Shown here in pieces: positions 11,514 through 64,000 of a DNA stretch of 64,000 nt. Each line of letters opens with the position of its first letter. Position 1 is the first letter of the stretch. This stretch comes from Octopus vulgaris. Its lineage: Eukaryota. The position numbers and the translations under genes were made by a program. The notes under the pieces were generated by a model that did not search any database, was not told the origin of the DNA, and saw only the letters and a list, made by a program, of their open reading frames with translations. The DNA lies in NCBI GenBank assembly GCA_951406725.2, contig OX597836.1:31124001-31188000 (forward strand). Reading direction: 5' to 3'.

Positions 11514-11548
<35 letters not shown>

Positions 11549-12277: not shown

Positions 12278-12465
12278 AGGATTTGACAATTATTTTCTTT
12301 TAAATGTTCTTAAAGGCTTAGCGCCACTGTTTTTTTTGCCTGTTAATGAAGCGTAAAGTTCACAGTTTTAGAAAACAAAAATATGCTGAATAGCCATGGT
12401 GCTATGTGCTAACATCAAATGAACTCAAAATGAGACAAGCAAAAACAATTTTCTAATTACCACCT

Positions 12466-12482
12466 ATATATACATACATACA

Positions 12483-12528
<46 letters not shown>

Positions 12529-12572
12529 CACACACATACATATATATATACATATATATATATGTATATATA

Positions 12573-12625
<53 letters not shown>

Positions 12626-12652
12626 CAACAATTGAGGGTAAAATTAATTAAT

Positions 12653-12689
<37 letters not shown>

Positions 12690-12785
12690 AATTGAGATAG
12701 GGGTTGTAAATGCAACCCACCATGGGATATATATATATGTATATGTATGTATGTTTATCATATTATATATTATATATATATGTTT
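12466..12785. repeat. (TACA)n/(TA)n microsatellites in the 3' UTR
   Basis: Read directly from the sequence. Confidence 0.95.
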
Positions 12786-13102
12786 GCAAAAAAGTGAGAG
12801 AAAGAGAGTACTTGATACATGTGGTAGAGTTTATGAGTTTATTTATTTGAAAACAGCAGGAGATTCATTTTGTTACCACTCAGTTCCTTTACCGCGCACG
12901 AGAAACTCTGAGTTGCCACAAAAGTGAATCATCAGCTGTTTCGCCCATGAGATTTTTAATGTGGAACTATGTCAAACCTGTTATTAAATACTTAAAACTC
13001 TGACTAAATTGTTGAGTGCTAGTTTGTTTTATTTGTTCACCCACTCATGTACATACATACACAGTGATCACACACACACGCACACACATGCACATATATG
13101 CA

Positions 13103-13141
<39 letters not shown>

Positions 13142-13153
13142 GTATGTCAACAT

Positions 13154-13196
<43 letters not shown>

Positions 13197-13199
13197 ATA

Positions 13200-13412
13200 T
13201 ATATTTGATTAATGATAGAGACAGAAAATGGAAGATACCAAAAAGTTTATTGATCACTACGACTGTTTCGACCCATCTACACTATGGATACACCTGAACC
13301 AGATGTTCAATATCCTACGTGTGAGCGATTGATGCTAGGTAGGTCAAAATAATTGTCGTGACCAATAAACTTTCTTGTATCTTCCATCTTCCGTCCTTCT
13401 CATTAATCAAAT
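13200..13412. repeat. Inverted repeat (~70-bp arms) with hammerhead-remnant and AATAAA ends
   Basis: TATTTGATTAATGA...GACTGTTTCGACC pairs with GGTCAAAATAATT...TCATTAATCAAATA. Confidence 0.8.
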
Positions 13413-15561
13413 ACCCAACGAACACTGAGAAAGAGAATATGCTTTACCAGGGAACTACCAGTTGTATACCATACAATTTATTAACTTATATATATATATA
13501 TATATATATGTTCTAAAATCTACACAGCCTTGGTTTTCTATCTCATTACGAAATAAAATTTATATATATATATACATACATATACACACACACACACACA
13601 TATATACATATGTTGTTGAAGTCATAAGTATTTATAAACTTTTGAAAGAACATGAAATTATTAATATTATTTTTTGGGGGGGAACATTGGCTCTCAAAGC
13701 ACATAAAGTTATAAATAATAGCTGGGGTAAAATGTTGTGTTGAAAAACCCTTTGGAGATAGATAAAAAGTTGAAGGCTGCCCAATAGGATGCAGTCGTGT
13801 ATTTCCTTTGACTTTTCCTATCTAAAAAAAAAAAAAGGGGTATTTCAACCCCATATTAATATGCTATTATTTATAGCTTTACGTGTATTGAGATCCACTG
13901 TTCCAAATAAATAAATATATATATATATGTATGTATATATTGACTTATATGTGTGTGCAGCATCTGCGTTAAAACATGCAGTGTTGTTGCAGCTAGTTTC
14001 CATGTCTTTCTATATGATTCCACTCCACTTCAACATAATAGGGTGTTCTGTGTTCCCTTAATTTTTGTTGTCTTTAATCAATTGTTATAATTAATTTTTG
14101 TTTTCTTTATTTAAGTGGAGTGGGACGTGTCTTAGAAACGACCTCAGCGTAAATTTCTCAAAGCTCAAAATATTTCTCAATGTTGAAACCAATGATTTGT
14201 TTTTGTCCCTAAAGCAGTCAGTCATATAAAGTAGAAAAAGAGGGAATCTTTTAAGCTGCTTGCTTTCTGAGACCAGTGTTACTGTCCCATCTCATGCCGA
14301 TCTTCCTTACAACCATTCCATTCGTTTTGTTCAAATCCCAGTATATCTCATGATGAAGTGAGACATATCATGACATATTGTTGGTTTTGTTCCCATCATA
14401 TTGTAATATGTCGTACCCAAAAAAAAGAAAAGAAACCAAATGGTTTCCCTACCACTGGTTTTGGTCAAAAAATTCTGCACTATTTCATGATGGTATGACT
14501 TAAACTCCATGAGTGTTGATGACATGGCTACCAATTGATTCAGTTGCAGTTGGTGCTTTTATTATATAAAGCTCAATAGAACCGTTATAGAATATTGAGT
14601 GAGTGGTCAGTATTTAGTAATATAGTAAAGTAGATGTATTTCACCAAAGAAAATCTGTAGTAAAATTGTTTTACATTCCTGGATTAAGTAAACTTTTACA
14701 GTTGTAAAAATATTTCTTGAGTGATAAAAGGAAGGTCAAACAGTTTAGCTGTAACACACACACATGCACACGCACACACACACCAACACACACACACACA
14801 CACAACACACGCACACACGCACGAAGGTTTTGCAAGATATTGTTGATACAGTCACATTATTTGAAGAATGATTTTCTTAAAAAATAAAAATTATTAACCC
14901 TCTTGGGACACCCAGGCCAATTCATCGGCCCAGGTGACACAAGTTGAAAGAACTTTGAAGTCAATTCGTCAGCCTGATGAAACAAATGTTGTGAATGGTT
15001 GCTTTTGAAATGTAATAGCCAATCAGAGATCATCTTTCAGTAGGTAAATCTGAATAGAAAACAAATTTTGGTCTTTTTGGCTACACATACCAAAACACCA
15101 AGTGTCTCAAAATGGTTTATTATATTAAAAACAAAACCTTTAAAAAAATAAGATCACTTTAACCTTTTGGAAAGAAGATTTTGGATTGCCCCATAACATT
15201 TGTGTTTCAAGGACCAAACAGTGAAAGCACTTTCACTCAAAACAAAGGCTTAAGAAAATCTCTCTCCAAATGTCAGAGGTGTACCTGCCAGGTGAGTGAT
15301 TTGATCTGAGACCATGTGTTGAAACTAAAACAATTGCAGCAGGGAAGACACATGTTAGCTATTCAAAAACACACAAGGGTTACTCTTTTACTCTTTTACT
15401 TGTTTCAGTCATTTCACTGCAGCCATGCTGGAGCACCATCGACCCCAGGACTTATTCTTTGTAAGCCCAGTACTTATTCTATCGGTCTGTTTTGCCGAAC
15501 CGCTAAGTTATGGGGACGTAAACACACCAGCATCAGTTGTCAAGCAATGTTGGGGGGACAA

Positions 15562-15594
<33 letters not shown>

Positions 15595-16757
15595 CATATA
15601 CATATATATGATGGGCTTCTTTCAGTTTCCGTCTACCAAATTCACTCACAAGGCTTTGGTCGGCCCGAGGCTATAGTAGAAGACACTTGCTCAAGGTGCC
15701 ACACAGTGGGACTGAACCCAGAACCATGTGGTTCATAAGCAACCTACTTACCACACAGACACTCCTGCGCCTATAACTTCGCTTAAACTATTTAGTATTT
15801 TTAGTATTTGATGTCAAAAATATTTTGTTGCACCAACTGCGACCCGGTCATTGGCATGATTCCACTTCATTTTGATTGTGTGTTTGTTTGTCTGAGTCAT
15901 TATCAAACATTTGTGTATGCCTAACGAGTTAATCTAACTGCAAACATTCAAATGATCAAATTGATCAGAGAAATATGGACAGTGAACTCTATGAATTACG
16001 ACATTCAGTTTATAGATATATTATTGCAGAAGCTTTTCATATGAAAATGTTATAAAACTAAAAACCTTAGTTGTAAAATGTATTTTAGTGTTACAAACAA
16101 TAACAGTTGATCAACAGAAAAAACATAGCATTATTGTAATACAATGGTGAGTTCATAGAGCAGAGAAATACAGTATTTAGTATTTAGTTTCATTCTTCTA
16201 TATTTTGAGTTCAAACACTACCAGTATTAATTTTGGTTTTTATCTTCCTGGGGTTGCAAAATTATGTTCAAATTTTAAATTCAAATCTTTGTTTCAAACC
16301 TTGTTAGTTCAGGAATGATAACATTACAGTTCAAATAGATAAATTTTTGCGTCTTTAATTAAGTTGAAAGTTAGTCTTCGTTATTTCAAAAATCAAAACT
16401 ACAGAGGCAGAACATATTCTTGTTAGCCTTTTAACTGTGAAATTAAATTTCATGATTATTCTAGTAAATGATATAAAATATCTGTGAAAGAAGAATTGCC
16501 TTTGTAAACTATCACAACAAAAAATAGTTTCAAGTGTAACATTCTTCAACAAAAGATAGATTGGTGAATAAAACTACTTTCTGCAGTTAGGGATAATGAA
16601 ATTTTGAGTGGATATATCTGATTTCTGCAATAAAAGGGTTAAAGTAAAAATAGGAGACATTGGATCATGTCTTGAATTTAGTGTAACTAGTAAAAAAAAA
16701 AAGTAAGACAGTCATGGTTGGACTGTCTTTGATCACAGGTTTGACAAATTTCCTTAA

Positions 16758-16998
16758 CCCATTTACTGCAAAATTAAATTTCAGGGTTATTCCAGTAATG
16801 ATGTTAAATATCTACCAAAAATCAGAATTGTTATTTTCTGCAAATCCCATTGCCTCAACATACTTGGCATATTTCAATGGAAAATAGTTTCAAACATGAT
16901 ATTCCTTAACAAAAGATAGCTTGGTATATAAATTTGCTTTCTGCAGTTAGGGATAATGAAATTTTGAGTGGAGATATCTGACATCTGCAGTGAAAGGG
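16758..16998. mobile_element. TTAA-flanked piggyBac-type MITE; second tandem copy at ~16426-16638
   Basis: TTAA|CCCATTTACTGCA...TGCAGTGAAAGGG|TTAA. Confidence 0.75.
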
Positions 16999-17280
16999 TT
17001 AAAATACAATGGCAAAGAGTTTGGAATTTTGATAACTGATTTTGAATGTGAACAATTGTCTTTCATTCAGTTGAAAGTGCGTTATTTCTCTAAATCTCAT
17101 AATTCTTGATTACTTTGAAAATTAAAACCACGAATACAAAATGTCTTCTTGTTGAAAAAGGGAAGAAAAAAAAAAACTTGGTCACAAAAGGGTTAATCTG
17201 AGAGTGTGGAAAAGAGATGGAATTTTAATAATTGATTTTGAATGTGATATTATTTTGCCTTTAATTTGTAATTTGTTGTT

Positions 17281-17286
17281 AATAAA
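17281..17286 (+). promoter_or_regulatory. Candidate polyadenylation signal of a long TBC1D2B-like 3' UTR
   Basis: AATAAA preceded by a U-rich tract. Alternative AATAAA sites near 13906 and 17378. Confidence 0.3.
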
Positions 17287-18569
17287 TGTTTATTCTGTTA
17301 AAACGGTATCTGACTTTAAGATGAAAACAAATTGAACGTTAAGACATATTTTGAAAAACCATATTACATTTAACATTAATAAATCAAGTTAAATCATTCC
17401 TTACTCTGTGATGGAATCAACCAGAGTCAACTATTGATTATTATTATGTTATTATTCACAAATGAAATCATTTTCATCAATAGCATGTTTTTATTTAATT
17501 ATATTGAAACCTAATCACATCTGGTAATTTTCCACTGAAAAATACAACTTTGATGTATAAAATAGGAAATAGGATATATAAAAACTAACATGTCTAGTAG
17601 ATTGCTGCTTTTTATCTAATAATAATGATAATAAGGAAAATGAGAAATAGGTTTGCTGTATTGATTATTGAACTGAGCTGAAATAGAATTTACATATAAA
17701 GAAAATAAAGACAAAAACACTTTCCGTAAAAATTCAGAAAAATTGATTATTATTAAAACATTTATGATTTTACATATTGATTCTTAAATTCTATTACTAA
17801 GTTCTTTTTCATAGAAGCTAGCTATCAGCAAGCAGGTATTGTGAATCAAGAACGGTTGTCAATCATGCTTTTGCTCTGATTCTTAAACAATCAACAATGC
17901 CCTTTGCAATAGAAACTAGAAGAGTGAAAACAAAACACACACACATACACACACAAAAACAAAACAAAAAAGACAAATAAAAAGTATAAAGAACATAAAT
18001 TAGTTTAAGCTCATAGAACTGCTTTTTCAAATGTTTACTTCCTCCAAGAGAAGATTCCATATTAAAAATCTGCATGGCTTCTTACACGATGCCATTTAAG
18101 AATAGAATAGAAACACAAGATTCCTGAAATACCAAAATCAAAGATTTTGTGAGAGAAATTTCCAAAAAAAAATGCATCAATTACTTTATTTAGCATGAAT
18201 ACAGTTATTGTTTATTTTGCTTGTTTTGGTAATTTCTCTGTGGCCACGCTGGAGCACTACCTTGAAGTGGTTAGTCGAACAAATCAACCCCAGGACTTAT
18301 TTTTAAACCTAATACATACTCTATTGATCTCTTTTGCCGAACTACTAAGTTACTAAGTTACAGGTACCTAAACAAACCAAAGGAGTGGGGTGGGGGAACA
18401 AACACTCACATCTATATACCCTGGGCTGCTTTTAATTTCTGCCTACCAAATCCACACAGTGGGACTGAACCCAGAACCATGTAGTTGGGAAGCAAGCTTC
18501 TTACCACATAGTCATGCAAGCAGTTTTATTCAAGTTTTTATTTACTTGGATTTGTTTGTTATTATTTAA

Positions 18570-18787
18570 CTCTTTAGTATTCCAATTACACTATCAAATG
18601 TAAGGCTTATTTATCCAGATTTTAAAAAATTAATCACATATTATCTTGTAGCTTCAAGATTTCAAAGATGTGGTTGTTTATTTTTAGAATGACATTGTAG
18701 TGTAGGTGGGAGAGGTTGGATCTGGCCAGTTCGAATATAAAAAGGTAGAACATTCGGTTAGATATGGATGACTTAAATGTTAAAGGG
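18570..18787. mobile_element. ~220-bp TTAA-flanked piggyBac-type MITE; copies at 11800-12019, 27197-27408, 33288-33506, 40126-40772
   Basis: TTAA TSDs and CCCTTTAG/CTAAAGGG-type termini, best preserved at 33288-33506. Confidence 0.8.
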
Positions 18788-20740
18788 TTAATCCCAGTTT
18801 TGTCTTGAGCCAATAATCCTATGACCTAAAGCATTCCAACCATGGCCACCCCTTGTTTGTATGAATGTGTCTAGGGGTTATTTTATTCAATATGTTCCTT
18901 TCTTCCTCAAGATATTAACGAGCTCTATGAGTGAGATTTGGTTGCTATTTCTAGTTGCTCCAGCAGGGCTACAGTCAAATGACTGAAACAAGTAAAAGAG
19001 TAAAAGAGATGCCTCACATTATATATATATATATATATATATATAAATATATACACACATACCTATTGACACACACACACATACACTCACGTATATCTAT
19101 TAAGTGAGGAGTGCATAATGTGTGTGTGCATATCTCTATATCTTTCAGCATGAATGAGAAAACTGAAAGGAAACCAGTGCATTTTTCCTTTGTGATTTTT
19201 GCCCTGCATCAAGTTATAGATATTCTTTTAGCATTCAGAAGAAGAAAAAAAATGTGCAGTGAACCAGTGATTTGGTCAATAGAATGATTTTAACCGATGA
19301 CTGTGTCTTTCACCATTTGCAATAAGAATATAAAAAAAAATGTAAACATGACCAAAAAAGAGTATTTTGCAAGTATGGATATTTGTACATTGTCAGGACA
19401 ACTGTTGTTTTGTTTTTCTCTTGTAGCTTTTGATTATTCTTCTCAATATTAAATTACTCTACATGGAAGTAGAACACATCAACCAGGCGGACCAAAGAGT
19501 GTGAATTTATGTACCTTGTTTTTCACACAATTCAGATTCACTCATGCGTGGGTCTGGAGTTACAGCGGAAGACATAGACAAATTTTTTTTATGTGCCCTT
19601 TTCAAGCCTAGCCAGGCTCATGGGCCCAGTTTCCCAATTTCTGTGGTGTATGTGTTCTGCCCCCCACCCCAGCTTGATGGGATGCCAGTCCATTGCAGTG
19701 TTACTCAAGAAACAGGAAGAGAGAGTAAGAGAAAGTTGGGGCGAAAGAGTACAACAGGGGTCGTCACCACCCCCTGCCAGAGTCTTGTGGAGCCTTAGGT
19801 GTTTTTGCTCAATAAACACACACAACGCCTGGTCTGGGAATCGAAATTGCGGTCTTCTGACTGCGAGTGCGCTGCCCTAACCACTGGGCCATTGCACCTC
19901 CCAAATGCACCCTTTTAAAGCCTAGCCAGGCTCATGGACCTGGTTTCCCAGTTTCCATGGTGTATGTGTTCCCAAGCTGGATGGGACGCCAGTCCATTGC
20001 AGCGTTACTCATTTTTGCCAGCCGAGTGGACTGGAGCAATGTGAAATGAAGTGTTTTGCTCAAGAACACAACGTGTCGCCCGGTCCAGGAATCGAAACCA
20101 CAATCTTACGATCATGATGCTGACACTCTAACCACTAAGCCACATGCCTCCACACATACATACATACATATAGATAGACAGATGCAAGCTTGCGTGTGTG
20201 TGTGGTAGAGAAGCTTGCTTCCCAGTTACATGGATTTAGGTTCACTCCCAATGCATGACACCTTTAGACCAACATGCAATGAAGCGTTTTGCACAATAAA
20301 ACAACACACCATCTGGTCTAGGAATTGAACCCATAATCTGGCAATCATGAGTGCAACACCTTAACTACTAGGCCACACATCTTCATGTGTAGACATGGTA
20401 AGAATATAAAGGGACATAACTATACAATGACTTTATAAAAAAACAAATCCTTCTTCTTTATAACAGACATAAGTGTATCTTGGACAACTGGCCAGCTTCC
20501 CTTTCAAAGATATTTAAACATATAGGCACAGGTGTGGCTATTTGGGTAAGAAGCTTGTTTTCTAACCACGTGGTCTTGGGTTCAGTCCTACTGTGTGACA
20601 CCTTGAGGAAGTGTCTTCTACTATAGCATCGGGTTGACTAAAGATTTGTGAGTAGATTTGCTTGACAGAAATTGAAAGAAACCCACCATTAATGTACATA
20701 TGTGTATGTGTGTGTGTGTATATATATATATGTGTGTGTG

Positions 20741-20773
<33 letters not shown>

Positions 20774-21129
20774 AGGTAGTTAGGGTAAATTCCATGTCTA
20801 TCTAACATATAGAATGAAACGTAATGGTTAATAAATAAGACCAAAACCATTCCAATTTCCTGTTTTGTTACACACACACACATGTATGTATCTGTGTGTG
20901 TTTTTTGTTTGTCCTTCATCACTGCTTGTCAACTGGTGGTGGTTTGTTTACATCCCTGTAACTTAGCAGTTTGGAAAATGAGGCTGATGGCATAAGTGTC
21001 ATGCTTAAAATATAACTACTGAGGTTGATTTGTTCAACTAAACCTTTCAAAAGTGGCTGCACTCCAATGACTGGTAGAAACAAAAAAAGAAGGAACGAAA
21101 GAAGAACACCTTAACATACCCATGCATGC

Positions 21130-21592
21130 AGCAGCTTCCCTCATCACAGCTTCCCTCAACACTGCTTCCCTCATCAAAGCTTCCCTCATCACAGCTTCCC
21201 TCATCACAGCTCCCCTCATCACAGTTTCCCTCATCACAGCTTCCCTCATCACTGCTTCCATCATCACAGCTTCCCACATCAAAGCTTCCCTCATCACAGC
21301 TTCCCTCATCACAGACCTCCCTCATCAAAGCTTCCCTCATCACAGCTTCCCTCATCACAGCTTCCCTCATCACTGCTTCCCTCATCAAAGCTTCCCTCAT
21401 CAAAGCTTCCCTCATCACAGCTTCCCTCATCACAGCTTCCCACATCAAAGCTTTCCTCATCACACCTTCCCTCATCACAGCTCCCCTCATCACAGCTTCC
21501 CTCATCACAGCTTCCCACATCAAAGCTTCCCTCATCACAGCTTCCCTCATCACAGCTTCCCTCATCACAGCTCCCCCTCATCACAGCTTCCT
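21130..21592. repeat. 15-bp minisatellite (CTTCCCTCATCACAG) x~30
   Basis: Read directly from the sequence. Explains five ORF-track entries. Confidence 0.95.
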
Positions 21593-21881
21593 TTGTCAAC
21601 TTTGGCCTTCACTACGTTCTCCTACTGTCGCAAATAGGTGACAACTTGGCCAAATCATTAGAGCATTGGACAGATTGTTCCAGTTCTCTGAGTTCAAATC
21701 CTACCGAGGTCAACTTTTACTTCTAACCTTTCAGGACAAATAGATAAAGCTACTATTTCAATACAGGGATCGATTCTCTTGTTCCTTTTGGTTTTCTTTC
21801 TTCCTCTCTAGAAGAAAATGGATATGTTCGGTCAGGGAGAGGAATGAAATGGGCTCCATGAAAATTAAAATGTCCAAGACA

Positions 21882-22383
21882 TACCATATTTTCTAGCATA
21901 CAACTTGAATTTTCAGACCAAAATTTACACCAAAAAAGGAATCAGTCTATTTATATACCAAGATGACTTTGGAGGACCAAAAATTCCATGTGAAATGCAG
22001 CAGGATTTGAAAGGATAGTGATGATATTTGAATGCTTACACTATATACTACATTGGCAGGTATGCCAGAAAATAATGAGTGTATGTTTCAGTCAATGAAG
22101 GAAACCTCTACACAGTTGCTAGACCTGTTAAAAATAGCAGCTAAATTTTTTTCAAATTGTACACTTCTGTCTTATTATATGTACATAATATATTTTCCAG
22201 CATATAAGTCGAACTTTCTGACCAGAATTTAAAGCCAAAGAAAGGTAAGTTGACTTATACACTGAGACTACTTTGGAGGACCAAAAATTCTTTGAGATAG
22301 GCAGCAGGGTTTGGAAAGATAGTGACGATGTTTGAATGTTTACATTATATATTATATTGAATTGTATGCCAGAAAATACAGTG
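21882..22383. mobile_element. Two tandem ~195-bp MITEs with Tc2/pogo-like ends
   Basis: CCATATTTTCTAGCATAC...GTATGCCAGAAAATA, repeated ~300 bp apart. Confidence 0.6.
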
Positions 22384-23432: not shown

Positions 23433-24084
23433 TCTGAGTTCAAATTGTGTTGAGGTTGACTTTGTCTTTCATCCTTTTTCAGGGTCGATAAATTAAGTAC
23501 CAGTTACATACTCGGGTCGATGTAATCGACTTAGCCCCGCCCCCAAATTTCAGGCCTTGTGCCTTTAATAGAAAGGATAATAATTATTATTATTATTATT
23601 ATTATTATTAGTTTCCAACTAGCAATAACCACGCCTCGGATTTACCTCATTGGCCATGGTACTGCCTCTGCGGTACCATTTTACCGTTGAGTGTGTTACA
23701 TTATAAGGCACAAAAAGAAAATGACTCTCCCCAGACACAACAGAATATGCTTCAACACACGAAGTCATATAAAGAATCTTGCAAACCAAATCCAAAAACG
23801 AAACATTAAACACTATGTGTACTCAGGAAACAGATGTTCTTGAATGCCCAGCAGCAGTCAAAGGTCAGCTAGCAGCAGTAGTAGAATCGCTAGTTCTAGA
23901 TTTCTGATTTTAGCTTCATCAGTAGCAGGTATGTAAGTCACCTCATGCCAAGCAAATCTAAACTAGCTGATATGGATAAACAAAGATTGTAAGGTCACTG
24001 ATGTTTGTATTTGGCCAGAAAACTGGGCAATAATTCAGCTTTAGCAACAGAATTAGATTTAGTTCAAAATTAGCAATCTGTATA

Positions 24085-31234: not shown

Positions 31235-31631
31235 CAAGGCGGTGAGCTGGCAGAACCGTTAGCATGCCAGGCAAAATGCCTAGTGGTATTTCGTCTACCG
31301 TTACATTCTGAGTTCAAATTCCGCCGAGGTCGACTTTGCCTTTCATCCTTTCAGGTTGATTAAATAAGTACCAGTTACACACTGGGGTCGATATAATCGA
31401 CTTAATCCGTTTGTCTGTCCTTGTTTGCCCTCTCTGCGTTTAGCCCCTTGTGGGTAGTAAAGAAAATAGGTATTTCGTCCACCACTACGCTCTGAGTTCA
31501 AATTCCACTGAGGATGACTTTCCCTTTCATCCTTCTGGGGTTGATTAAATAAGTACCAGTTACAAACTGGGGTCGATGTAATCATCTTAATCCCATCCTC
31601 CAAGCTGCCCTTGTGGCAAAAATTTGAAATC
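31235..31631 (+). mobile_element. Dimeric SINE-A with 15-bp TSD
   Basis: ATTATTAGACCAGGT at 31220-31234 and 31632-31646. Confidence 0.85.
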
Positions 31632-32104
31632 ATTATTAGACCAGGTTACAGTTTGTGCGATGAAGATTTTGACACCAAATAAATAATAAATGTTTAAGGG
31701 TATTCAACAGTCTTTGTACATTTTTGAATGACAAACGTGTCTTCCATGAAGCAATCATTTCAATTTAATAGCATAACTGAAACAGCTGTTATAGTTTCTT
31801 GTGTAAGAAATCCAAATTCTTAGCCATAATGAATCAGGAAATTACTGAAGTATATTAATACTCAGGTAGAAAATCAATAGTATTAATATTCAGGTAGAAA
31901 CCATTACCATCTCTTGGATCACTGCTCATTGTTCTTCTTTGGTGCACATCTGTAAAGCCATAAGAAAAAATGGCATGATCAGGCTAAAACTTAGATCACA
32001 TAACCACAATAGTACCAGCTATAAGCATGTATGCGCCGGAGGCAGTGTGACAATAATAAAGATATGTTATGGCAAATGTGCACATAATTTTTGACTTCTC
32101 CTTG

Positions 32105-40999: not shown

Positions 41000-41222
41000 C
41001 GGGCAGAACCGTTGGCATGCCGGGCGAAATGCGTAGCCGTATTTCGTCTGCCGTTACGTCCTGAGTTCAAATTCCGCCGAGGTCGACTTTGCCTTTCATC
41101 CTTTCGGGGTCGATAAATAAAGTACCAGTTTCGCACTGGGGTCGATGTAATCGACCTAATCCGTTTGTCTGTCCTTGTTTGTCCACTCTGTGTTTAGCCC
41201 CTTGTGGGCAGTAAAGAAATAT
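41000..41222 (+). mobile_element. SINE-A, CpG-intact copy
   Basis: Matches the 43138 copy. Confidence 0.9.
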
Positions 41223-42580
41223 ATATTGTAGAATTAACTATATTGTAGATGGTGGCGACGAAGATGACGGTCGCCGTATTGCTACTGGACGGGTGTTATC
41301 TGACGTCGTCGCTGGAATTGACTGTGTCGTGTGGTCAGTGGCTAGACCTTAGGAGGCTGGAACCAAAAGGCATCGAGACAAGAAGTTGAGATTTTATAGC
41401 TAACGCTAGACTCAAAATTGGAGTTGAGAACGGACTGTCTCACGTGATCGTATTTAGGGACTGCGGTTGGTTAGGTTGCATATGGGCACGCGATAGAGTA
41501 AGATACGAATTGGTACTTATTTTATTGACCCCGAAAGGATGAAAGGCCAGCAGTTTTAGTGGGACAGGTAGCTGATTACATCAACCTCGGTGCTTGACCG
41601 TTACTTTATTTTATCATCCCTGAAGAATAAAAGCCATAGTTGACCTTAGTAGGATTTGAACTGAGAATGTGACATGACTGACTGATATTCAGTCAGTAAG
41701 ACACTGCCCCGTCTCCATCCTTTGGCTCACAAGCGTTATCCCCTTTGTCTTTTCTTTCGTCTCTATATAGCATTCCGTACATCTTACTTAATGCTGAGAA
41801 CCACAACGCTGCGGTATTTTTCTAGGGATAGCATCTCGTATAGTCGTATAGTGCTAAAAAGCACAGAAATACATCGGTAGCAAGCGAAAAACTTCTAGCA
41901 GCAGTGTTATAATTGCTTCGTCCCGATTTTTGCGTCTTTGCGCGTTACCAGCGGCAAATACCCACTAGCAGAGACATGCTTGTATAAATTTAGCCTCTGT
42001 TAATATAGGAAAACAATAACTAATAAGTCACTGGCATCGCAAATAGCTGTTAGGCTGTGCAAAAATTCGTTGAGTACATTATACAGAATGCTGTTTTGAA
42101 AAAAATACTAGTGAACTGATACTGTTTCTGTCGAAAATAGCGAATTTACAATGGTCTCTATGTCTTAGAGTTGACTGGTCTCGTACCTTCTCCATTCAGG
42201 TATGGCATACCCACTCGTCTTTCCACTTTTAGTTATCTTGTTCTGTCCAACATCCCCGTCCCCGAAACAATTACCATGCCCAGTTCTTTGACCTAAGATT
42301 TCAATCCTTAGGTATCATCTCCTTGCTCATGATTTTCCTGAAGATGTTTCTTTTTCTTGGTAATCTTTCGAGTCCAAGAAAGACGATTCTGAAATTTCTT
42401 GTTGAACAATCTGCACAGGTAAAGGAGTGGCTGTGTGGTAAGTACATGGTTCCAACCACATGGTTCCGGGTTCATTCCCACTGCGTGGCACCTTGGGCAA
42501 GTGGCTTCTACTATAGCCTCGGGCCGACCAAAGCCTTGTGAGTGGATTTGGTAGACAGAAACTGAAAGAAGCCCGTCGTA

Positions 42581-42629
<49 letters not shown>

Positions 42630-43137
42630 ATGTGTGTGATTATGTTTGTGTGTCTGTGTTTGTCCCCCCAACATTGCTTAACAACCGATGGTGGTGTGTT
42701 TACGTCCCCACAACTTAGCGGTTCGGCAAAAGAAACCAATAGAATAAGTACTGGGCTTCCAATGAATAAGTCTTGGGGTCGATTTGCTCGACTAAAAGGC
42801 GGGGCTCCGGCATGGTCGCAGTCAAATGACTGAAACAAGTAAAAGAGAGAGATGATTTGTTTATTGTGGTCAAATGCTTTGTGCTGTATATGAGCCCACT
42901 TCCTCCATCAGATCGACATTGCCTGTACTAGTGCATGGTGTGCGTCACATCAGATGTAGAAGTGATCGTAGAGCGACGTGAAATGAAGATTTTTGGACAT
43001 ACCTACACAAGTGTCTCCTCCCGCCACCAACTTTGTTTCTTTATATCTTCCAGAAAAATGGATATTTTTAGATTAAATTTTATACAAATACGCTTCAGGT
43101 GGTGCAGAGTCTGATTATATCGAAATTTGTTGCGGAA

Positions 43138-43545
43138 GGCGGCGAGCTGGCAGAAACGTTAGCTCGCCGGGCGAAATGCTTAGCAGTATTTCGTCTGCCG
43201 CTACGTTGTGAGTTCAGATTCCGCCGAGGTCGACTTTGCCTTTCATCCTTTCGAGATCGATTAAATAAGTACCAGTTACACACTGGGGTCGATATAATCG
43301 ACTTAATACCTTTGTCTGTCCTCTCTGTGTTTAGCCCCTTGTGGGTAGTAAAGAAATACGTATTTCGTCTGCCGTTACGCTCTGAGTTCAAATTCCGCCG
43401 AGGTCGACTTTGCCTTTCATCCTTTCGGGGTCGATAAATTAAATACCAGTTACGCACTGGGGTCGATGTAATCGACTTAATATCTTTGTCTGCCCTTGTT
43501 TGTCCCCCCTATGTTTAGCCCCTTGTGGGTAATAAAGAAATATAC
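43138..43545 (+). mobile_element. Dimeric SINE-A with 19-bp TSD, inserted in an older fold-back element (~43100-44058)
   Basis: ATCGAAATTTGTTGCGGAA at 43119-43137 and 43546-43564. Confidence 0.92.
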
Positions 43546-44091
43546 ATCGAAATTTGTTGCGGAAAAATAAATTCTGTAGGCGGGGAGAGGAGTTTCGGAA
43601 AATTCTCACGAATCGGCTTTGTTTTCCTATAACATTAAGAAAGCTGGATACTCCTTTTTATGAAATTTCTCACAAATGCCTTTCACTGTCTGTAGATTAT
43701 GACTTTATTGAAATTTAATATGAAAAAAGAAGCAAACAAAATACATGGTGAACATGCACGCATACTTACTACTGGTACACAATACAGTTTCTTTCGAAAT
43801 TTCAAGTTTCCTTTTGTAGATATGTGATGTGTGTCAGTATGAATGTGTGCGAGTCAGCCATTTTTTTTCTTTCATATGTTAAATTTCGATATAATCGTAA
43901 CCTATAGATTCTTACAGGTATTTATTGAAATTTTCATGAAAAATAAGTTGAGGAAACAAAGCTGACTTATGTGAATTTTCAGAAACCTGTCTGCTATTCA
44001 CAGAATTTTTTTGTTCCTCAAATTCCAATATAATCTAAATCTTGTGTAAGTATGCCGATTTTTGTTCTAAAACACAACGCCCCGCCCGGTC

Positions 44092-54553: not shown

Positions 54554-54672
54554 GCGTATGGCCATATCACGTTGAAAGTACTGGTTCTTGTCTGATCACT
54601 GAAGTTAAGCAACGTCAAGCCTAGTTAGTACTTAGATGGGTGACTGCTTGGGAAACCTAGGTGCTGTAAGTG
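54554..54672 (+). pseudogene. Full-length dispersed 5S rRNA pseudogene (intronic)
   Basis: GCGTATGGCCATATCACGTTGAA...GAAGTTAAGCAACGTC...GTTAGTACTTAGATGGGTGACTGCTTGGGAAACCTAGGTGCTGTAAG follows the invertebrate 5S sequence. Many CpG transitions and no oligo-T terminator. Confidence 0.9.
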
Positions 54673-56760
54673 TTACACAGTAGGCGTAGAAGTGGCTGTG
54701 TGGTATGGTTCCGGGTTCAGTCCCACTGTGTGGCACCTTGGGCAAGTGTCTTCTACTATAGCCTTGGGCCGACCAAAGCCTTGTGAGTGGATTTGGTAGA
54801 CGGAAACTGAAAGAAGCCCGTCGTATATATGTATATATATGTGTGTTTGTGTGTCTCTGTTTGTCCCGCCAACATTGCTTGACAACCGATGCTGGTGTGT
54901 TTATGTCCCTGTAACTTAGCAGTTCAGCAAAAGAGACCGATAGAATAAGTACTAGGCTTACAAAGAATAAGTCCTGGGGTCGACTTTCTCGACTAAAGGC
55001 GGTGCTCCTGCATGGCCACAGTCAAATGACTGAAGCAAAAGAATAAAATAGTAAAAGAGTAATATGTATCTCTTTTTGTGTTAATAAACTAACAGATTCC
55101 ACAAGACTGTCCTATTACTATAATCCTTAAATTATTGGTCAAGTCTGTATTTCCAGTCAGTCACTTTGCTTTGTGTCTTGATCCCAAGGTATTTATTTCC
55201 CTTTGTGGTAGTAAGTGAACAGCTTCCACATTGCTTGTGAAATTAACAAGCAAGTGGCTGAGCACGCCACAGACACATGTACCCTTAATGTACTTCTCGG
55301 ATAGATTCAGCATGAAAGAATGTGACATGTCTGGCCCTTTGAAATACAGGTACGACTCACTTTTGCCAGCTGAATGCATTGACTGGTGCAATGTGAAATA
55401 AAGTGTCTTGCTCAAGGATACAATATGTTGCCAGGAATTGAACTCATGACCTTACAATCATGAGCCAAATACCTTAACCACTAAGCCACACACTTTCCCT
55501 ATAGACATGTCATCATCATCATCGTTTAATGTCCGTTTTCCATGCTGGCATGGGTTGGACGTTTTGACTGAGGGCTGGTGAGCCAGAAGGCTGCACCAGG
55601 CTCCAATCTGATCTGCTGGATGCACTTCCTAATGCCAACCACTCCAAGAGTGTAGTGGGTGCTTTTTACATGCCTATTTCTTTATTACCCACAAGGGGCT
55701 AAACACAGAGGGGACAAACAAGGACAGACATAGGTATTAAGTCGATTACATCGACCCCAGTGCGTAACTGGTACTTAATTTATCGACCCTGAAAGGGTGA
55801 AAGGCAAAGTCGACCTCGGCGGAATTTGAACCGAGGTCGACTTTGCCTTCATGCCACCAGCACAAGGGCTAGTCTGCCAGCACTGGCATCAACCATGCTT
55901 GAATGGTGCTTTTACATGCCACTGGCATGGGACCAGTCAGCCGGCACGGGACCAGTCAGCCGGCACGGGACCAGTCAGCCGGCACGGGACCAGTCAGCTA
56001 GCATGGGACCAGTCTGCTGGCACTGGCATCAACCACGCTCGAATGGTGCTTTTTATGAGCCCCCAGCATACGCATACACATGCATACACGTGATCATACT
56101 TACACAAAATAGAGAAACAAATGTTGGTAATATTTTAGTTATGTAAGGATCTATATATTGTATAATATATGTTAGCAGAAAAATGTTTTATAATTTGTCT
56201 TATTCCTATTTTGATGCATAAATTTATAGCATTGTTAGGCATCGGCATAGTTGTATGATTAAGGAATTTGCTTCCCAACCCTGTGGCCTTGGGTTCAGTC
56301 CCATTGCGTGACACATTGGCCAAGTGCCTTCTACTATAGCCCCAGGCTGACAAAAGCCTTGTGAATGGATTTAGTAGATGGAAATCAAAAGACACCTGTC
56401 GCATATATGTGTGTGTATGTGCATGCATGTGTGACTTTGTCTTTCTGTTTGTCCTCCGCCACTACTTGACAACTGGGGTTGGTTTGTTTGTGTCCCTGTA
56501 ACTTGGCAGTTCAGCCAAAGAGACTGATTGAATAAGTACCAGGCTTTAAAAAAAGAATAAGTACTAGGGCCAACTTTGCCTTTCAGCTTTTCAAGATCGA
56601 CAAAATAAGTACCAGTGGAGTACTGGGGTCAGTGTAATCAACTAGCTCCCTCCCCCAACTGAGTACTGGGGTCGATATAAACAGTTGTCTCCCTCCCCAG
56701 AAAATCCAGGCCTTGTGCCTATAGTAAAGATTATTATTATTATTATTATTATTATTAAAA

Positions 56761-57327
56761 AGGCGGGGAGCTGGCAGAATCATTAGCATGACAGATGAAA
56801 TGCTAAGCGGCATTTTGACCGTCTCCATGTTCTGAGTTCAAATTCTGCCGAGGTCAGTTTTGCCTTTCATCCTCTTGGGGTCAATAAAATAAGTACCAGC
56901 TGAGTAGTGGGGTCGATGTAATCGACTTTCCCCCTCTCCCAAATTTCAGGCCTTGTAGTAGAAAGGATTATTATTATAATTATTATTATTATTGTTATTA
57001 TTATTATATTTTCTAGGAAACTGAGTTGTTTTTCTCTAGTTTTGTGGTTTGGAATTATTTTATAGGGTCCAACACGAATGTCATTTTCTAAGCCTGTCAT
57101 AGCAGCTGTTTCTGGTTATGCTGTAGCTGGTGGTTTGGAGCTAGCACTTATGTGCGATTTGAGAGTTGTTGAAGAATCAGCCATCATGGGTGTCTACAAC
57201 CGGAGATTGGGTAAAATGTGTTTTTATCTTTTCCTGTCATTTTCCTCTCCATTTTTTTCTTTTCTTTTCTTTTTTTCTTTATTTCTATATTTCTTTCTTT
57301 CTTTCTTTCTTTCTTTCCTTTGTCTTC

Positions 57328-57369
<42 letters not shown>

Positions 57370-57862
57370 GGCGGTGAGCTGGCAGAATCGTTAGCACACT
57401 AGATGAAATGCTTTGCGGCATTTTGCCCATCTCTATGTTCTGAGTTCAAATTCCGCTGAGGTCGACTTTGCCTTTCATCCTTTCAGGGTTGATTTAATAA
57501 GTACCAGTTATGCACTGGGGTCGATGTAATAGACTTAATCCCCTCCTCCAAGCCGCCCTTGTGGCAAAGATTTGAAATCATCATTATCATTATTATTATT
57601 ATTACTGTTATCATTATTATTATTATTATTATTATCATTATTATTATTAAGGCAGTGTGCTGGCAGAATTGTTAGCATGCTGGAGGAATTGCTTAGTGGT
57701 ATCTTGCCTGTTGCTACGTTCTGAGTTCAAATTCCACTGAGGTCAACTTTGCCGTTCATCCTTTCAGAGTTGATTAAATAAGTACCAGCCAAGTGCTGGG
57801 GTCGATGTGACTGACTTGTCCCTTCCCCCAAAATTTCATGCCTTGTGCCTATGGTAGAAAGA
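56761..57862 (+). mobile_element. SINE-A copies flanking exon 4 (56761-56970, 57369-57580, 57649-57862)
   Basis: Family A boxes and core, each within an (ATT)n tract. Confidence 0.85.
57066..57210 (+). CDS. Enoyl-CoA hydratase-family exon 4 (GPTRMSFSKPVIAAVSGYAVAGGLELALMCDLRVVEESAIMGVYNRRL)
   Basis: tttatag acceptor, G|gtaaaa donor. KPVIAAVxGxAxGGGxELAxxCD-type crotonase signature. Confidence 0.95.
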
Positions 57863-58959: not shown

Positions 58960-59333
58960 CATTATTATTATTATTATTATATAGATGATGATGATGACAA
59001 TGAGAATGACTTTACAGGTGTTTCCCCTCAGTTTCCTTAATCACAACAGTCAGTAGACAGTAGTTATTTGTTAAGCTAAGAATAACAAAAACTATATGAA
59101 ATAAGAATCTTACACATTTGGTCAAGTCCCACCACATAATCTTCACTTGTGGTTGTTACTTTTGCCATTGTTTTTTTGTGTTCAAAGTTGGCCCCAATTG
59201 ATAAAAGACAATCCAGCCATGATCATCTTCCCAACCCTTATTTTAGACATAGGTTACCCTCCACAGTTAGCTCCCCCAAAACTCGTTTCTGTTTGATATT
59301 TTATTCTCATATTCTTTTTCTTAATCTTTTCAG

Positions 59334-59483
59334 GAGTCCCCCTTGTTGATGGTTGCACAGTAAGATTACCAAAACTCATTGGTTTATCTCGTGCCATGGA
59401 TTTAATTCTGACCGGTCGGCCAGTTGACAGTAAAGAAGCTCTCCAAATTGGTCTTGCTAACAGAGTAGTTCCTAACGGGACAG
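59334..59483 (+). CDS. Enoyl-CoA hydratase-family exon 5 (GVPLVDGCTVRLPKLIGLSRAMDLILTGRPVDSKEALQIGLANRVVPNGT)
   Basis: ttttcag acceptor, CAG|gtaatt donor, 150 nt, phase 1-1. Confidence 0.95.
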
Positions 59484-59949
59484 GTAATTATTGTTATTGT
59501 ATATTCTGTACTCCTTTAAAGGGCCTTGTGTTTCTCAAGGAAGGAGAAGCAAAATATTTAGAGATCACACCTGGTTATTCTCACACCAGTTCCTATAACT
59601 GTGTGTCTCCTTTACAGCAGCACACCTGTTTCTATTCTCATTCTTAATAACTCTCTCTCTCCTTCTCTGGCCAGGTAACTGTACCTCCTCCTCTACAGCA
59701 AGACATCTGTATCTGTCTCTCTTATTTCTTTATTGCCCACAAGGGGCTAAACATAGAGGGGACAAACAAGGACAGACAAAGGGATTAAGTCGATTACATC
59801 GACCCCAGTAGTACTTAATTTATCGACCCTGAAAGGATGAAAGGCAAAGTCGACCTTGGTGGAATTTGAACTCAGAACGTAGCAGCAGACGAAATACCAC
59901 TAAGCATTTTGCCCGGCATGCTAACATAATTATATCAACCCCAATGCTT

Positions 59950-60224
59950 CATTATTTACATTATTTGCATTCGACGGATATTTGTCCTCATCTTGTTTGT
60001 TGTTAACAAAACGTTTCGGCTGATATACCCTCCAGCTTTCTTTAGGTGTCTTGGGGAAATTTCGAACCTGGGTTCTCATTCCTAAGGTATTTTTCATCAT
60101 CGGCGGCGGTGATGGCTCCTCCTCCTCTGCTGCTGCTGTTGTTCACTGCTTGGAATTGAACTCGGAATCTTGGGGTTAGTAGCCTGTGCTCTTAACCACT
60201 ACGCCATATGCCTGTGGGCATATG
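59950..60224 (-). mobile_element. tRNA-headed SINE-like element with a hammerhead-type tail (core degenerate in this copy)
   Basis: Head at 60141-60213 (TGGCGTAGTGG, GAGTTCAATTCC); tail homologous to 63040-63180. Confidence 0.75.
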
Positions 60225-61456: not shown

Positions 61457-62727
61457 ATCATCATCATCATTGTTTAATGTCCGCTTTCCATGCTGGCATG
61501 GGTTGGACGGTTTATCTGAGGTCTGGCAAGCCAGAAGGCTGCACCAGGCTCCAATGTGATCTGGCAAAGTGTCTACAGCTGGATGCCCTTCCTAATGCCA
61601 ACCACTCTGAGAGTGTAGTGGGTACTTTTTATGTGCCACTGGCATGAGTGCCAATCCGGCAGTACTGGCATCAGCCATGACAATGATTCCACTTCACTCA
61701 ACAGGTCTCCTCAAGCACAGTTTATTGCCCTATGATTGAAGGGTACTCTTTAAATGGGCCATTTATTCCACACTGGCATAGGCCACAGTTATGGTCTCAC
61801 TTGGCTTGCTGGGTCTTCTCTAACTCAGCATATCTCCAAAGGTTTCAGTCATTTGTCATCGCCTCCGTGAGGCCCAACATTCGAAGGTCGTGCTTCACCA
61901 CCTCATCCCAGGTCTTCCTGGGTCTACCTCTTCCACAGGTTCCCTCCACTGTTAGAGTGTGACACTTTTTCACACAGCAGTCCTCATCCATACACAACAC
62001 ATGACCATACCAGCACAGTCGTCTCTCTTGCACACCACATCTAATGCTTCTTATGTTCAACTTTTCTCTCAGGGCACTTACATTCTGTTGTGTATGCACA
62101 CTAACATTACACATCCATCAGAGCATACCAGCTTCATTTCTTGCAAGCTTACACATGTCCTCAGCAATCACAGCCCATGTTTCACTGCTGTGTAGCACAG
62201 CTGTGTGCACACATGCATCATACAGTCCACCTTTCACTCTGAGTGAGAGGCCCTTTGTTACTAGCAGAGGTAGGAGTTCTCTGAACTTTGCCCAGGCTAT
62301 TCTTATTCTAGCAGCTACGCTCTCAGAGCATCCACCCCCATTATTGATTTGGTCACCAAGATAACAGAAGCTATCAACGACTTCAGGTTTTTTTCCCTGG
62401 CATGTGACAGAAGCTGTTTTCTGCACATTTTCAGTGTTTATTGCCCCTGTGCATTTGCCCTCACAAAAACTACCTTCCCAGTTAGCCTTCCTTTGATATT
62501 ATTACACCTCTTGTGTGTCCATAGTTTACACTGCGTGCATCTTATGGAGTTTCTACTTACACCTTTTCTACAGACCGAGCAGGGCCATCTGCCTGAAGGG
62601 AATTGTGATTTGTCTGCCTTCCTACTTTCTAAGACTTTGGTTTTTGCTAGATTCACTCAATTCTAGATCTGAAACTTCTCCTCTAGTTCTGATAGTGTCT
62701 CAGCTATTAGAGCAAGGTCATCAGCAT
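61457..62727 (-). mobile_element. 5'-truncated RTE-type LINE (same family as 52205-53490)
   Basis: ORF fragments 62438-62656, 62118-62426 and 61845-62114, followed by the 3' UTR. Confidence 0.92.
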
Positions 62728-63096
62728 CATCATATGTATGTGTCTGTGTCTTTGTGCCTGTGGTTGTCTCCTATCACTGCTTGACAACCAGCATTGGTTT
62801 GTTTATGTTTCTGAACTTAACTATTTGGCATAAAAGACATTTAGAATAAGTACCAGGTTTTTAAAATGTTGGTTCTTTAGTTGATTTCTTTGACTAAACT
62901 GTTCAAGATAATGCTCCAGAATGGTTACAGTCCAATGACTGCAACAAGTAAAAGATCAAAAATAGTTTCTAATTTTTACTTTTGTTTAAACATTTCATAA
63001 ATTACAGTTCTATTTAAGAGATGAGGAATTATGCACATTATTTATATTTACCTTATTTACATTTGATGGATATTTGTCTTCATCTTGTTTGTTGTT

Positions 63097-63142
63097 AACA
63101 CAACATTTCAGCTGATATACCCTCCAGCCTTCATCAGGTGTC
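63097..63142 (-). ncRNA. Minimal type I hammerhead motif in the SINE tail
   Basis: GACAC-CUGAUGA-A-GGCUGG..UCAGCU-GAAA-UG-UU-GUGUU. Stem I fully paired, with CpG decay. Confidence 0.68.
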
Positions 63143-63858
63143 TTGGGGAAATTTCGAACCTGGGTTCTCATTCCTAAGGTATTTTTCGATATTATTATTA
63201 TTGAGAAGACCCGGCAAGCCAAATGAGACCATAACCTCGTGGCCTATGCCAGGGGCGTAATCAGCCTACTTATGCGTACCTTTCCTTCATTGGACACTAA
63301 ACTCTGCTTCTGAAAACCTGTTGAGGCGAGTGAAATTGAAATCAAATTCGTTGACTGGCATCCGTGCTAGTGGAGCGCTAAGAGTACCATACGAGCATGA
63401 TTGTTGCCAGAGCAGCTAACTGGCTTCTGTGCCGGTGGAACGTGAAAAAACATTCGAGCGAGGTCGTTGCCAGTTCCGCTGGACTGGCTCCTGTGCAGGT
63501 GGCACGTAAAAAACACCATTTGAGCGTGGCCGTTGCCAGTACCGCTTTACTGGCTCTCATGCTGGCGGCACGTAAAAGCACCCACTTGGCATTAGGAAGG
63601 GCATCAAGCTGTAGAAACTCTGCCAGATCAGATTGGAGCCTGGTGCAGCCATCTGATTTGCCAGTCCTTAGTCAAATCGTCCAACCCATGCTAGCATGGA
63701 GAACGGACGTTAAACAGTGATGATGATAATGATGATTCAGGTCACTGCCTGGAATTGAACTCGGAATCTTGGGGTTAGTAGCCTGCGCTCTTAACCACTA
63801 CGCCATATGCCCATGGGCATAACTTAGGAATGAGAACCCAGGTTTGAAATTTCCCCAA

Positions 63859-63904
63859 GACACCTGATGAAGGCTGGAGGGTATACCAGCCGAAACGTTG
63901 TATT
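63859..63904 (+). ncRNA. Minimal type I hammerhead motif in the inverted tail copy
   Basis: GACAC-CUGAUGA-A-GGCUGG(AGGGUAUA)CCAGCC-GAAA-CG-UU-GUAUU. Confidence 0.72.
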
Positions 63905-64000
63905 GCCAACAAACAAGATGAGGAAAAATATGTGTCAAAAGTAAATAATGTATTTTGTAAATTAGTTCATTAATTGATTGATTGATTTGTTCATCTATTG

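What the first reader, a model, noticed from the sequence alone, without database searches (positions are those of the whole stretch)
63003..63955. Candidate new system: Pol III SINE with a hammerhead tail and Penelope-style inverted end
Seen: head 63740-63812(-), tail 63003-63190(-) with intact CUGAUGA/GAAA, a 16-bp palindrome TATGCCCATGGGCATA at the 5' end, then an inverted tail copy 63823-63955 with a second hammerhead. Stem II varies G-U versus G-C between copies and keeps pairing. Stem III is the minimal palindrome AACGUU. Known: PLE insertions often have an inverted upstream pLTR and minimal dimer-dependent hammerheads, and Schistosoma Sm-alpha/Sj-alpha are SINE-like elements with hammerheads. 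Inference: a ribozyme-processed SINE mobilised by PLE reverse transcriptase rather than a LINE. I know of no description in cephalopods but could not search.
Basis: partly seen in the sequence, partly recalled or inferred. Interest (0 to 1): 0.9.

Follow-up and report, generated by a model that had tools for sequence, protein, structure and literature searches.

The report
Penelope retrotransposon with a tRNA promoter
The short SINE-like repeat is the terminal repeat of a protein-coding Penelope-type jumping gene in an octopus-like genome; it carries a tRNA-derived promoter sequence directly before its reading frame and is likely transcribed by RNA polymerase III, which would be unusual for a protein-coding retrotransposon.

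Summary
The tRNA-Arg-like head, (AAT)n spacer and hammerhead 'tail' form the terminal repeat (pLTR) of an autonomous Penelope/Poseidon-type element. The head sits about 30 nt after the stop codon of an RT + GIY-YIG frame (28 of 29 loci). The 'tail' is the start of that same 831-codon frame. Of 129 loci, 84 are head-to-head inverted pairs. 68 pairs have one long and one short 3' end, and 53 of 71 pairs lie inside one target duplication (usually 12-13 bp; control about 1 of 71). This is the known Penelope insertion signature, so the window copy is one insertion. The new part: A and B boxes are near-perfect, copy number rises 4.7-fold across the tRNA 5' end, and the 2.5-kb sense strand has no TTTT (2-5 expected, P 0.003-0.09; 8-10 in other Penelope elements). 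Most likely Pol III transcribes the whole unit and the RT copies its 5' end by internal initiation, giving about 10^4 SINE-like insertions. Pol III transcription, ribozyme cleavage and real covariation are not shown. Repbase, Dfam and two octopus papers could not be checked.

The parts
62992..63004 (+). Left copy of the 13-bp target-site duplication
   Evidence: two mismatches to the right copy, as expected from decay of one CpG (inferred)
63005..63033 (-). ~30-nt 3' extension ('tail' in the Penelope sense), present on this arm only; ends at the distal RT start site (inferred)
   Evidence: Craig 2021 and Frangieh 2024
63005..63193 (-). Long arm: 5' UTR remnant and first ~51 codons of the PLE ORF (ATG at 63171), including the hammerhead and a 9-bp stem-loop
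63097..63142 (-). Minimal type I hammerhead of the left arm, CpG-decayed; predicted cut after 63102
   Evidence: sequence; features as in Cervera 2014; no Rfam hit
63203..63735 (+). Unrelated dispersed repeat inserted in the (AAT)n spacer, opposite orientation, ending in (GAT)n; likely a LINE 3' end (recalled, not tested)
   Evidence: (partial copies elsewhere in the window)
63736..63812 (-). tRNA-derived head (best match tRNA-Arg TCG), with A box 63795-63805 and B box 63752-63760
   Evidence: z 8.6; 20 tRNA genes of 6 amino-acid isotypes compared; promoter consensus in PMC8969392
63806..63821 (.). Hairpin/palindrome at the 5' end and inversion junction; 5-bp hairpin native to the PLE, extended probably by cDNA fold-back; 3-nt overlap with the right arm
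   Evidence: fold-back type 29, PLE type 32, other 19 of 80 arms
63819..63952 (+). Short, 5'-truncated inverted arm ending at the proximal RT start site (inferred)
63859..63904 (+). Minimal hammerhead of the right arm; core and ACGT palindrome intact, one stem I mismatch; predicted cut after 63899
63952..63964 (+). Right copy of the target-site duplication
59951..60222 (-). Second, single-arm copy of the same family, short 3' end, hammerhead core mutated

Best explanation
The feature is one insertion of the terminal repeat of an autonomous Penelope/Poseidon-type retrotransposon whose unit is tRNA-like head, (AAT)n, then a single RT-endonuclease reading frame, and the head likely acts as an internal RNA polymerase III promoter for the whole unit. 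Steps: (1, inferred) Pol III starts at the head and reads through, because the sense strand has no TTTT. (2, shown for Anolis PAc, inferred here) The protein binds near the start of its own ORF and begins reverse transcription internally at two sites about 30 nt apart. (3, pattern shown, mechanism inferred) Two staggered nicks about 12-13 bp apart each prime one cDNA, one from each site; the two cDNAs join head to head through microhomology or fold-back. (4, inferred) On an RNA that begins at the head, copying yields only a ~280-nt SINE-like arm; on a tandem read-through RNA it runs back through the ORF and yields long copies. The hammerhead is the ordinary PLE ribozyme lying inside the coding frame; most templates were uncut.
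For: Head follows the endonuclease stop in 28 of 29 loci found with the endonuclease region; 27 also have tail sequence. The tail runs on into ORF sequence in 7 of 30 loci found with the ORF's 5' part, in frame over ~200 codons in L243; L255 is an endonuclease-head-tail-ORF tandem. An intact 847-aa relative starts with the same peptide (41% over 177 aa). The RT groups with Anolis, lamprey and sea-urchin proteins, apart from the genome's Neptune-like families. Inverted pairs 84 of 129 loci; long+short 68, short+short 2, long+long 1, unclassed 13. One TSD in 53 of 71 pairs against a mean 0.95 of 71 in 20 mismatched controls. Either arm can reach further 5' (24, 27, similar 17), which fits two primings. 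Pol III: A box 11/11, B box 10/11; exact-match counts 4356 just inside the head against 929 just upstream, where 85-97% survival is expected; 52 of 93 arms start within -4..+18 of the head, 13 extend upstream; 0 T4 runs in 2496 nt against 2.8, 5.3 and 4.3 expected (P about 0.03, 0.003, 0.007), while five control PLE stretches from four families have 9, 9, 8, 8 and 10.
Against: No direct evidence of Pol III transcription. The RNA reads laid show both strands equally, 87% run on into unlike sequence, ORF depth is about 200-fold below head/tail depth, and no ends pile up. The T4 deficit is not significant under a dinucleotide (Markov-1) null (2.3 expected, P 0.09), rests on one majority sequence, and G4 runs are also absent (0 against 1-2 expected). 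The 5' pile-up coincides with a hairpin that could stall or fold back the cDNA without any promoter. How an uncapped Pol III RNA would be translated is unexplained. Copies are about 4% (non-CpG) to 7% diverged and no intact ORF was seen among the loci examined, so the family may be extinct.
Confidence: 0.66

Rival explanations
1. Ordinary Poseidon-type PLE transcribed by Pol II; the tRNA segment is a passenger captured once, and short copies are 5'-truncations that pile up at the hairpin.
For: The hairpin lies exactly where 5' ends cluster, and 29 of 80 arms show fold-back letters there. Markov-1 null P 0.09. RNA reads look like host read-through. PLE pLTR promoters are described as typical (PMC6765202 passages).
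Against: A and B boxes match the consensus at correct spacing in the family majority. Only about 30 nt lie between the stop codon and the head, leaving little room for another promoter. T3 and T4 runs are depleted under the codon-aware nulls, but not in the control PLEs.
Confidence: 0.2
2. A true non-autonomous SINE lineage exists: solo head+tail copies act as source genes and are mobilised in trans by the PLE (closest to the first reader's view).
For: Head-containing arms outnumber ORF-linked arms about 4.7 to 1. One variant differs (tail 130: G in 19 of 75 head-start arms against 5 of 49 ORF-linked, p 0.04 uncorrected), and head-start arms are slightly less diverged (3.5% against 4.2%).
Against: Four other tail sites, including N7 (18 of 79 against 11 of 52), do not differ. 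In Anolis PAc the RNA needs sequence downstream of the RT start sites, and solo copies end at those sites.
Confidence: 0.11
3. The ribozyme cuts multimeric RNA to make the transposition template, as proposed for Schistosoma Sm-alpha and retrozymes.
For: Core intact in 98 of 178 arms; the free core position N7 is the main non-CpG polymorphism of the first 125 tail positions (T 151, A 47, C 7). Weak excess of 5' ends near the predicted cut: 10 of 88 against 5.5 expected, P 0.05, with some arms from the same locus.
Against: 198 of 339 arms span the ribozyme. The 3' ends do not match the cut site. No tandem arrays of the short unit dominate the loci seen. PAc hammerhead mutants still insert in vitro.
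Confidence: 0.1
4. A LINE-dependent SINE, with the inverted arm as an independent insertion or a later rearrangement.
For: tRNA head and target duplications are SINE-like.
Against: One TSD surrounds both arms; strict long/short asymmetry; the tail is PLE coding sequence; no poly(A) or microsatellite 3' end.
Confidence: 0.01

Closest known systems
Penelope/Poseidon PLEs, e.g. Poseidon of Anolis carolinensis (PAc; Frangieh 2024, PMC11167929)
   Same: Single ORF with RT and C-terminal GIY-YIG; hammerhead overlapping the ORF start; two ends about 30 nt apart inside the ORF's 5' part; inverted 5'-truncated arm (Craig 2021, PMC8557442).
   Different: tRNA-derived head with A/B boxes directly before the ORF; no TTTT in the sense strand; about 80% of arms that reach the head stop there, giving SINE-like copies.
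tRNA-derived SINEs (SINEBase definition, PMC3531059)
   Same: tRNA head with internal promoter boxes, about 280 nt, about 10^4 dispersed copies, TSDs.
   Different: The partner is a PLE, not a LINE; the head is part of the autonomous element; no simple-repeat tail; no separate source lineage detected; mostly inverted pairs.
Schistosoma Sm-alpha / Sj-alpha (review passages, PMC6765202)
   Same: Pol III-type promoter combined with a type I hammerhead.
   Different: Those are non-coding, often tandem, cut out by a canonical ribozyme, and no partner is named in the passages read; here the ribozyme is minimal, in a coding frame, and mostly uncut in the templates.
Metazoan non-LTR retrozymes (PMC7761336; preprint 10.64898/2026.07.22.740005) and non-autonomous Chlamys such as MRC1 (PMC8557442)
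   Same: Short non-coding sequences related to PLE pLTRs and thought to be moved by PLE proteins.
   Different: Those are head-to-tail tandems with no tRNA head described in the text read; here copies are head-to-head pairs.
Octopus tRNA-derived retroposons of Ohshima and Okada 1994 (OR2 is a CORE-SINE per PMC4758252)
   Same: Octopus, tRNA-derived; that two of them are tRNA-Arg-derived is recalled, not read.
   Different: Paper not held, so no sequence comparison; the short form may be one of them.

Membership tests
Penelope-like element (EN+, Penelope/Poseidon) | Single ORF with PLE-type RT | tested here: met
   RVT_1 E 1.4e-10; DKG, GLAMG, YVDD motifs in one 831-codon majority frame; 365 relatives
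Penelope-like element (EN+, Penelope/Poseidon) | C-terminal GIY-YIG endonuclease | tested here: met
   29% identity over 157 aa, E 3e-24, to the C-terminus of the Anolis protein P0089. The Pfam GIY-YIG model itself gave no hit, so this rests on homology and motifs.
Penelope-like element (EN+, Penelope/Poseidon) | Partial tandem forming a pLTR | tested here: met
   L255, L280, L245
Penelope-like element (EN+, Penelope/Poseidon) | Inverted 5'-truncated copy and 30-40 bp extension at one end | tested here: met
   84 of 129 loci inverted; 68 long+short
Penelope-like element (EN+, Penelope/Poseidon) | Placement in the Poseidon clade rather than Neptune | tested here: inconclusive
   The tree separates it (100/100) from two Neptune-like families and groups it with P0089, but no named reference elements were in the tree; both clade labels are my inference
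Minimal type I hammerhead | Core CUGANGA/GAAA, extra base before G10.1, G10.1-C11.1, short helix I, palindromic 15.2-16.2 | tested here: met
   against Cervera 2014
Minimal type I hammerhead | Self-cleavage as dimer or protein-assisted | not testable with these tools
   RNA-seq showed no end pile-ups; such libraries are not built to show them
Minimal type I hammerhead | Compensatory covariation in helices | tested here: not met
   Within one ~4%-diverged family only a one-sided U/C change in 12 of 210 arms; little power
SINE | Head derived from tRNA with A and B boxes | tested here: met
SINE | Transcribed by Pol III | not testable with these tools
   indirect only
SINE | Non-autonomous family with its own source genes | tested here: inconclusive
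   variants shared with ORF-linked arms; one site p 0.04 uncorrected
SINE | Depends on a partner LINE; simple-repeat 3' tail | tested here: not met
   the tail is PLE coding sequence
Non-LTR retrozyme | Head-to-tail tandem repeats each with a hammerhead | tested here: not met
   head-to-head pairs or single arms dominate

The most novel reading that the evidence does not exclude
An autonomous, protein-coding Penelope retrotransposon that has taken a tRNA gene as its promoter, purged Pol III terminators from a 2.5-kb coding sequence, and makes its own 'SINE' as a by-product of internal initiation on unit-length Pol III transcripts: a SINE and its partner in one transcription unit.
Probability: 0.55. 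Interest if true: 0.85.

Novelty: new variant of a known kind. Interest (0 to 1): 0.7.

Why it matters
SINEs are defined as Pol III-transcribed, non-coding and LINE-dependent, while autonomous retrotransposons are taken to use Pol II or a host co-transcript. This element joins the two. It would show a route to SINE birth through a Penelope element and pose a testable question: how is protein made from, or alongside, a Pol III RNA? Separately, about 10^4 short insertions with a strict long-end/short-end pairing inside one 12-13 bp duplication give an unusually clean in vivo record of the poorly understood Penelope integration step, and support a two-nick, two-start-site model. Practically, the family is likely to be mis-annotated as a SINE or as miRNA-like hairpins in octopus genomes (Rfam miRNA hits on the inverted pairs).

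Tried and rejected
Rfam and ARAGORN found no hammerhead or tRNA in the element. A Pfam GIY-YIG genome search returned Neptune-like families with different hammerheads and no shared tail, so they are not the partner; it missed the true partner, whose endonuclease the Pfam model does not score. A protein search with the tail peptide found only an Octopus sinensis gene model. A metagenome scan found 13 loci with the same hammerhead core but no head or tail similarity; two served as controls. Sequencing-run search: no RNA holder listed, which is no evidence either way. RNA reads could not show starts, ends or strand. Monomer folding z-scores were not significant (-0.03 to -1.7). In one search the reference held only the 22-nt spacer upstream of the head, not the ORF as intended; it still separates arms that stop from arms that pass. 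first mis-paired L108; corrected. Nine duplicate or overlapping loci were dropped before the counts. Earlier findings of this scan: none. Literature searches listed no paper describing a tRNA-headed PLE or a PLE-mobilised tRNA SINE; the library lacks most subscription papers.

Full report
Scope. The window lies in a 2.8-Gb animal genome (G000). An Octopus sinensis gene model matches the element's peptide at 89%, so an octopus is the likely host; I did not identify the assembly.

1. Observation. The head, two hammerheads, palindrome and inverted arm are present. A ~530-bp unrelated repeat splits the left arm in its (AAT)n spacer. A second copy lies at 59951-60222. The left hammerhead has lost two CpGs; the right keeps the ACGT palindrome but has one stem I mismatch. 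The motif has the features Cervera and de la Pena list for PLE minimal hammerheads (PMC4209133, parts 1-2 of 4 read): short helix I, long helix II, an extra base before G10.1 and a palindromic stem III. Rfam does not score it.

2. Family and insertion pattern. Exact 30- and 31-mers occur 4760 and 3054 times. With 3-5% divergence per base this gives roughly 12,000-22,000 arms and 8,000-15,000 long ends. I examined 138 loci from four searches and dropped 9 duplicates or overlaps. Of 129, 84 are head-to-head inverted pairs; in the set chosen on a mid-tail word, unbiased for the ends, 20 of 26. Ends are asymmetric: 68 long+short, 2 short+short, 1 long+long (L108, one arm of which runs on into the ORF) and 13 unclassed. 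One duplication flanks the pair in 53 of 71 cases against a mean of 0.95 in 20 mismatched controls; 25 of 53 are 12-13 bp. The window's pair has a 13-bp duplication with two mismatches. Either arm may reach further 5' (24, 27, 17 similar), so neither is a copy of the other. Arms at a locus agree at the polymorphic N7 site in 48 of 56 pairs (p 1e-5); the 8 disagreements suggest that two RNA molecules are sometimes used (inference). Craig 2021 (PMC8557442, passages) names the inverted truncated copy and the one-sided 30-40 bp extension as PLE hallmarks. Frangieh 2024 (PMC11167929, parts 1-2 of 4) maps the extension to two internal RT start sites and shows both strands cut and extended. Reads from two RNA runs have loose ends clustered at the same two positions, and contigs from two further runs end at or near them.

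3. The partner is the element itself. About 15 loci shared sequence upstream of the head. It reads as an endonuclease C-terminus. In 29 loci found with that region, the head follows the stop codon in 28, and 27 also have tail sequence. RT motifs lie upstream. In 7 of 30 loci found with the ORF's 5' part, the tail continues into coding sequence, in frame for about 200 codons in L243. L255 is a direct tandem. A majority sequence computed in the script is one 831-codon frame from the ATG in the tail. An intact 847-aa relative starts with the same peptide. The RT groups with Anolis, lamprey, lizard and sea-urchin proteins, away from two Neptune-like families of the same genome (17 rows, no named references). 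ORF-linked (55) and head-start (80) arms share four of five tested tail variants and similar divergence, so I found no separate SINE lineage.

4. The head. It aligns over 71 nt to tRNA-Arg(TCG), z 8.6, best of 20 genomic tRNAs from six amino-acid isotypes, so the isotype is provisional. The A box is perfect and the B box 10 of 11 against the consensus in PMC8969392 (passages). Three indirect signs point to use by Pol III. (a) Position: about 30 nt after one stop codon and shortly before the next ATG. (b) A step in copy number: 4356 exact matches just inside the head, 929 just upstream, 70 past the long end in the ORF; survival across the tRNA 5' end is 21% where 85-97% is expected; 52 of 93 arms start at -4..+18. 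(c) No run of four T in 2496 sense-strand bases, against 2.8 (codon permutation, P about 0.03), 5.3 (four-fold-site null, P 0.003), 4.3 (base shuffle, P 0.007) and 2.3 (Markov-1, P 0.09); T3 runs are 12 against 17-24. Controls: Neptune-like ORFs have 9, 9 and 8; two metagenome PLE stretches with the same hammerhead core and no A/B boxes have 8 and 10. That T4 or longer ends Pol III transcription is established knowledge, not tested here. Against: a hairpin at the same spot could cause the step; G4 runs are also absent; and RNA-seq shows unstranded host read-through with the ORF about 200-fold lower (2 of 3 raw RNA runs, 6% of each read).

5. Mechanism. Most likely, Pol III reads from the head through the unit. 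The RT starts inside the ORF's first ~150 nt, at one site per nick. A transcript beginning at the head yields the short arm; a tandem read-through transcript yields long copies. The PLE identity and the pairing pattern are shown; Pol III use, the dimer and the two-RNA step are inferred. The ribozyme does not define the ends: 198 of 339 arms span it, with only a weak excess of 5' ends near the cut (10 of 88 against 5.5, P 0.05). Translation from such an RNA is unexplained; the protein may come from rare Pol II read-through (speculation).

6. Known systems and novelty. The PLE signature, minimal hammerheads and short PLE derivatives are known. Also read: the retrozyme preprint (parts 1-3 of 5); passages of PMC7761336, PMC6765202, PMC3531059, PMC4758252, PMC5786205, PMC3747384, PMC9223172, PMC3899998, PMC6962438 and 10.1101/596502. 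None of that text describes a tRNA-headed PLE. Ten searches listed none. Not seen: Ohshima and Okada 1994 (not held); PMC13282606, a 2026 Octopus vulgaris repeat annotation seen only as a search listing (6 mentions of Penelope, 10 of SINE); Repbase, Dfam and all supplements. The family is probably in some library; whether this architecture was noticed is open.

7. Verdict. Real and not ordinary. New variant of a known kind; interest 0.7.

Noticed in passing
G000, loci L091-L093, L037, L042: Young Neptune-like PLE family: many hits with an open 781-aa RT + GIY-YIG frame, an upstream ~330-380-aa open frame, 456-bp direct pLTRs 99% alike in L091, and a hammerhead-like motif with a changed core.
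   Followed up: partly
tail positions ~135-152; window 63036-63062: A 9-nt unit at the short end occurs in 1-4 tandem copies among arms, as if the primer realigned at initiation.
   Followed up: no
tail positions 109-160 (L101:1440-1533): A 9-bp stem encloses the short end in its loop and the long end lies about 16 nt past it; candidate protein-binding element (z -1.7).
   Followed up: partly
protein P0002: An Octopus sinensis gene model (cysteine-rich, membrane-receptor-like by eye) begins with 36 residues from this element's frame: exonisation or an annotation artefact.
   Followed up: no
window 54554-54672 (+): 5S rRNA-like sequence, 87.6 bits.
   Followed up: no
window 23552-23679 (-): 5' part of a U4 snRNA followed by (AAT)n, likely a retroposed pseudogene.
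   Followed up: no
window 59297-59647 (+): Exon-like piece of an enoyl-CoA hydratase gene (Pfam ECH_1); both family copies may lie in its introns.
   Followed up: partly
window 61457-62700 (-): Decayed LINE-like sequence whose 3' end matches the repeat inserted in the spacer; no Pfam hit for one piece.
   Followed up: partly
window 121-995, 31238-31657, 41038-43547, 56549-57851: Another abundant ~250-nt dispersed repeat family, at least 14 copies (families D7, D10, D13, D16).
   Followed up: no
runs X18 and X20 laid on L243: Contigs from two different coded organisms cover head, tail and ORF, so the family spans more than one species label.
   Followed up: partly
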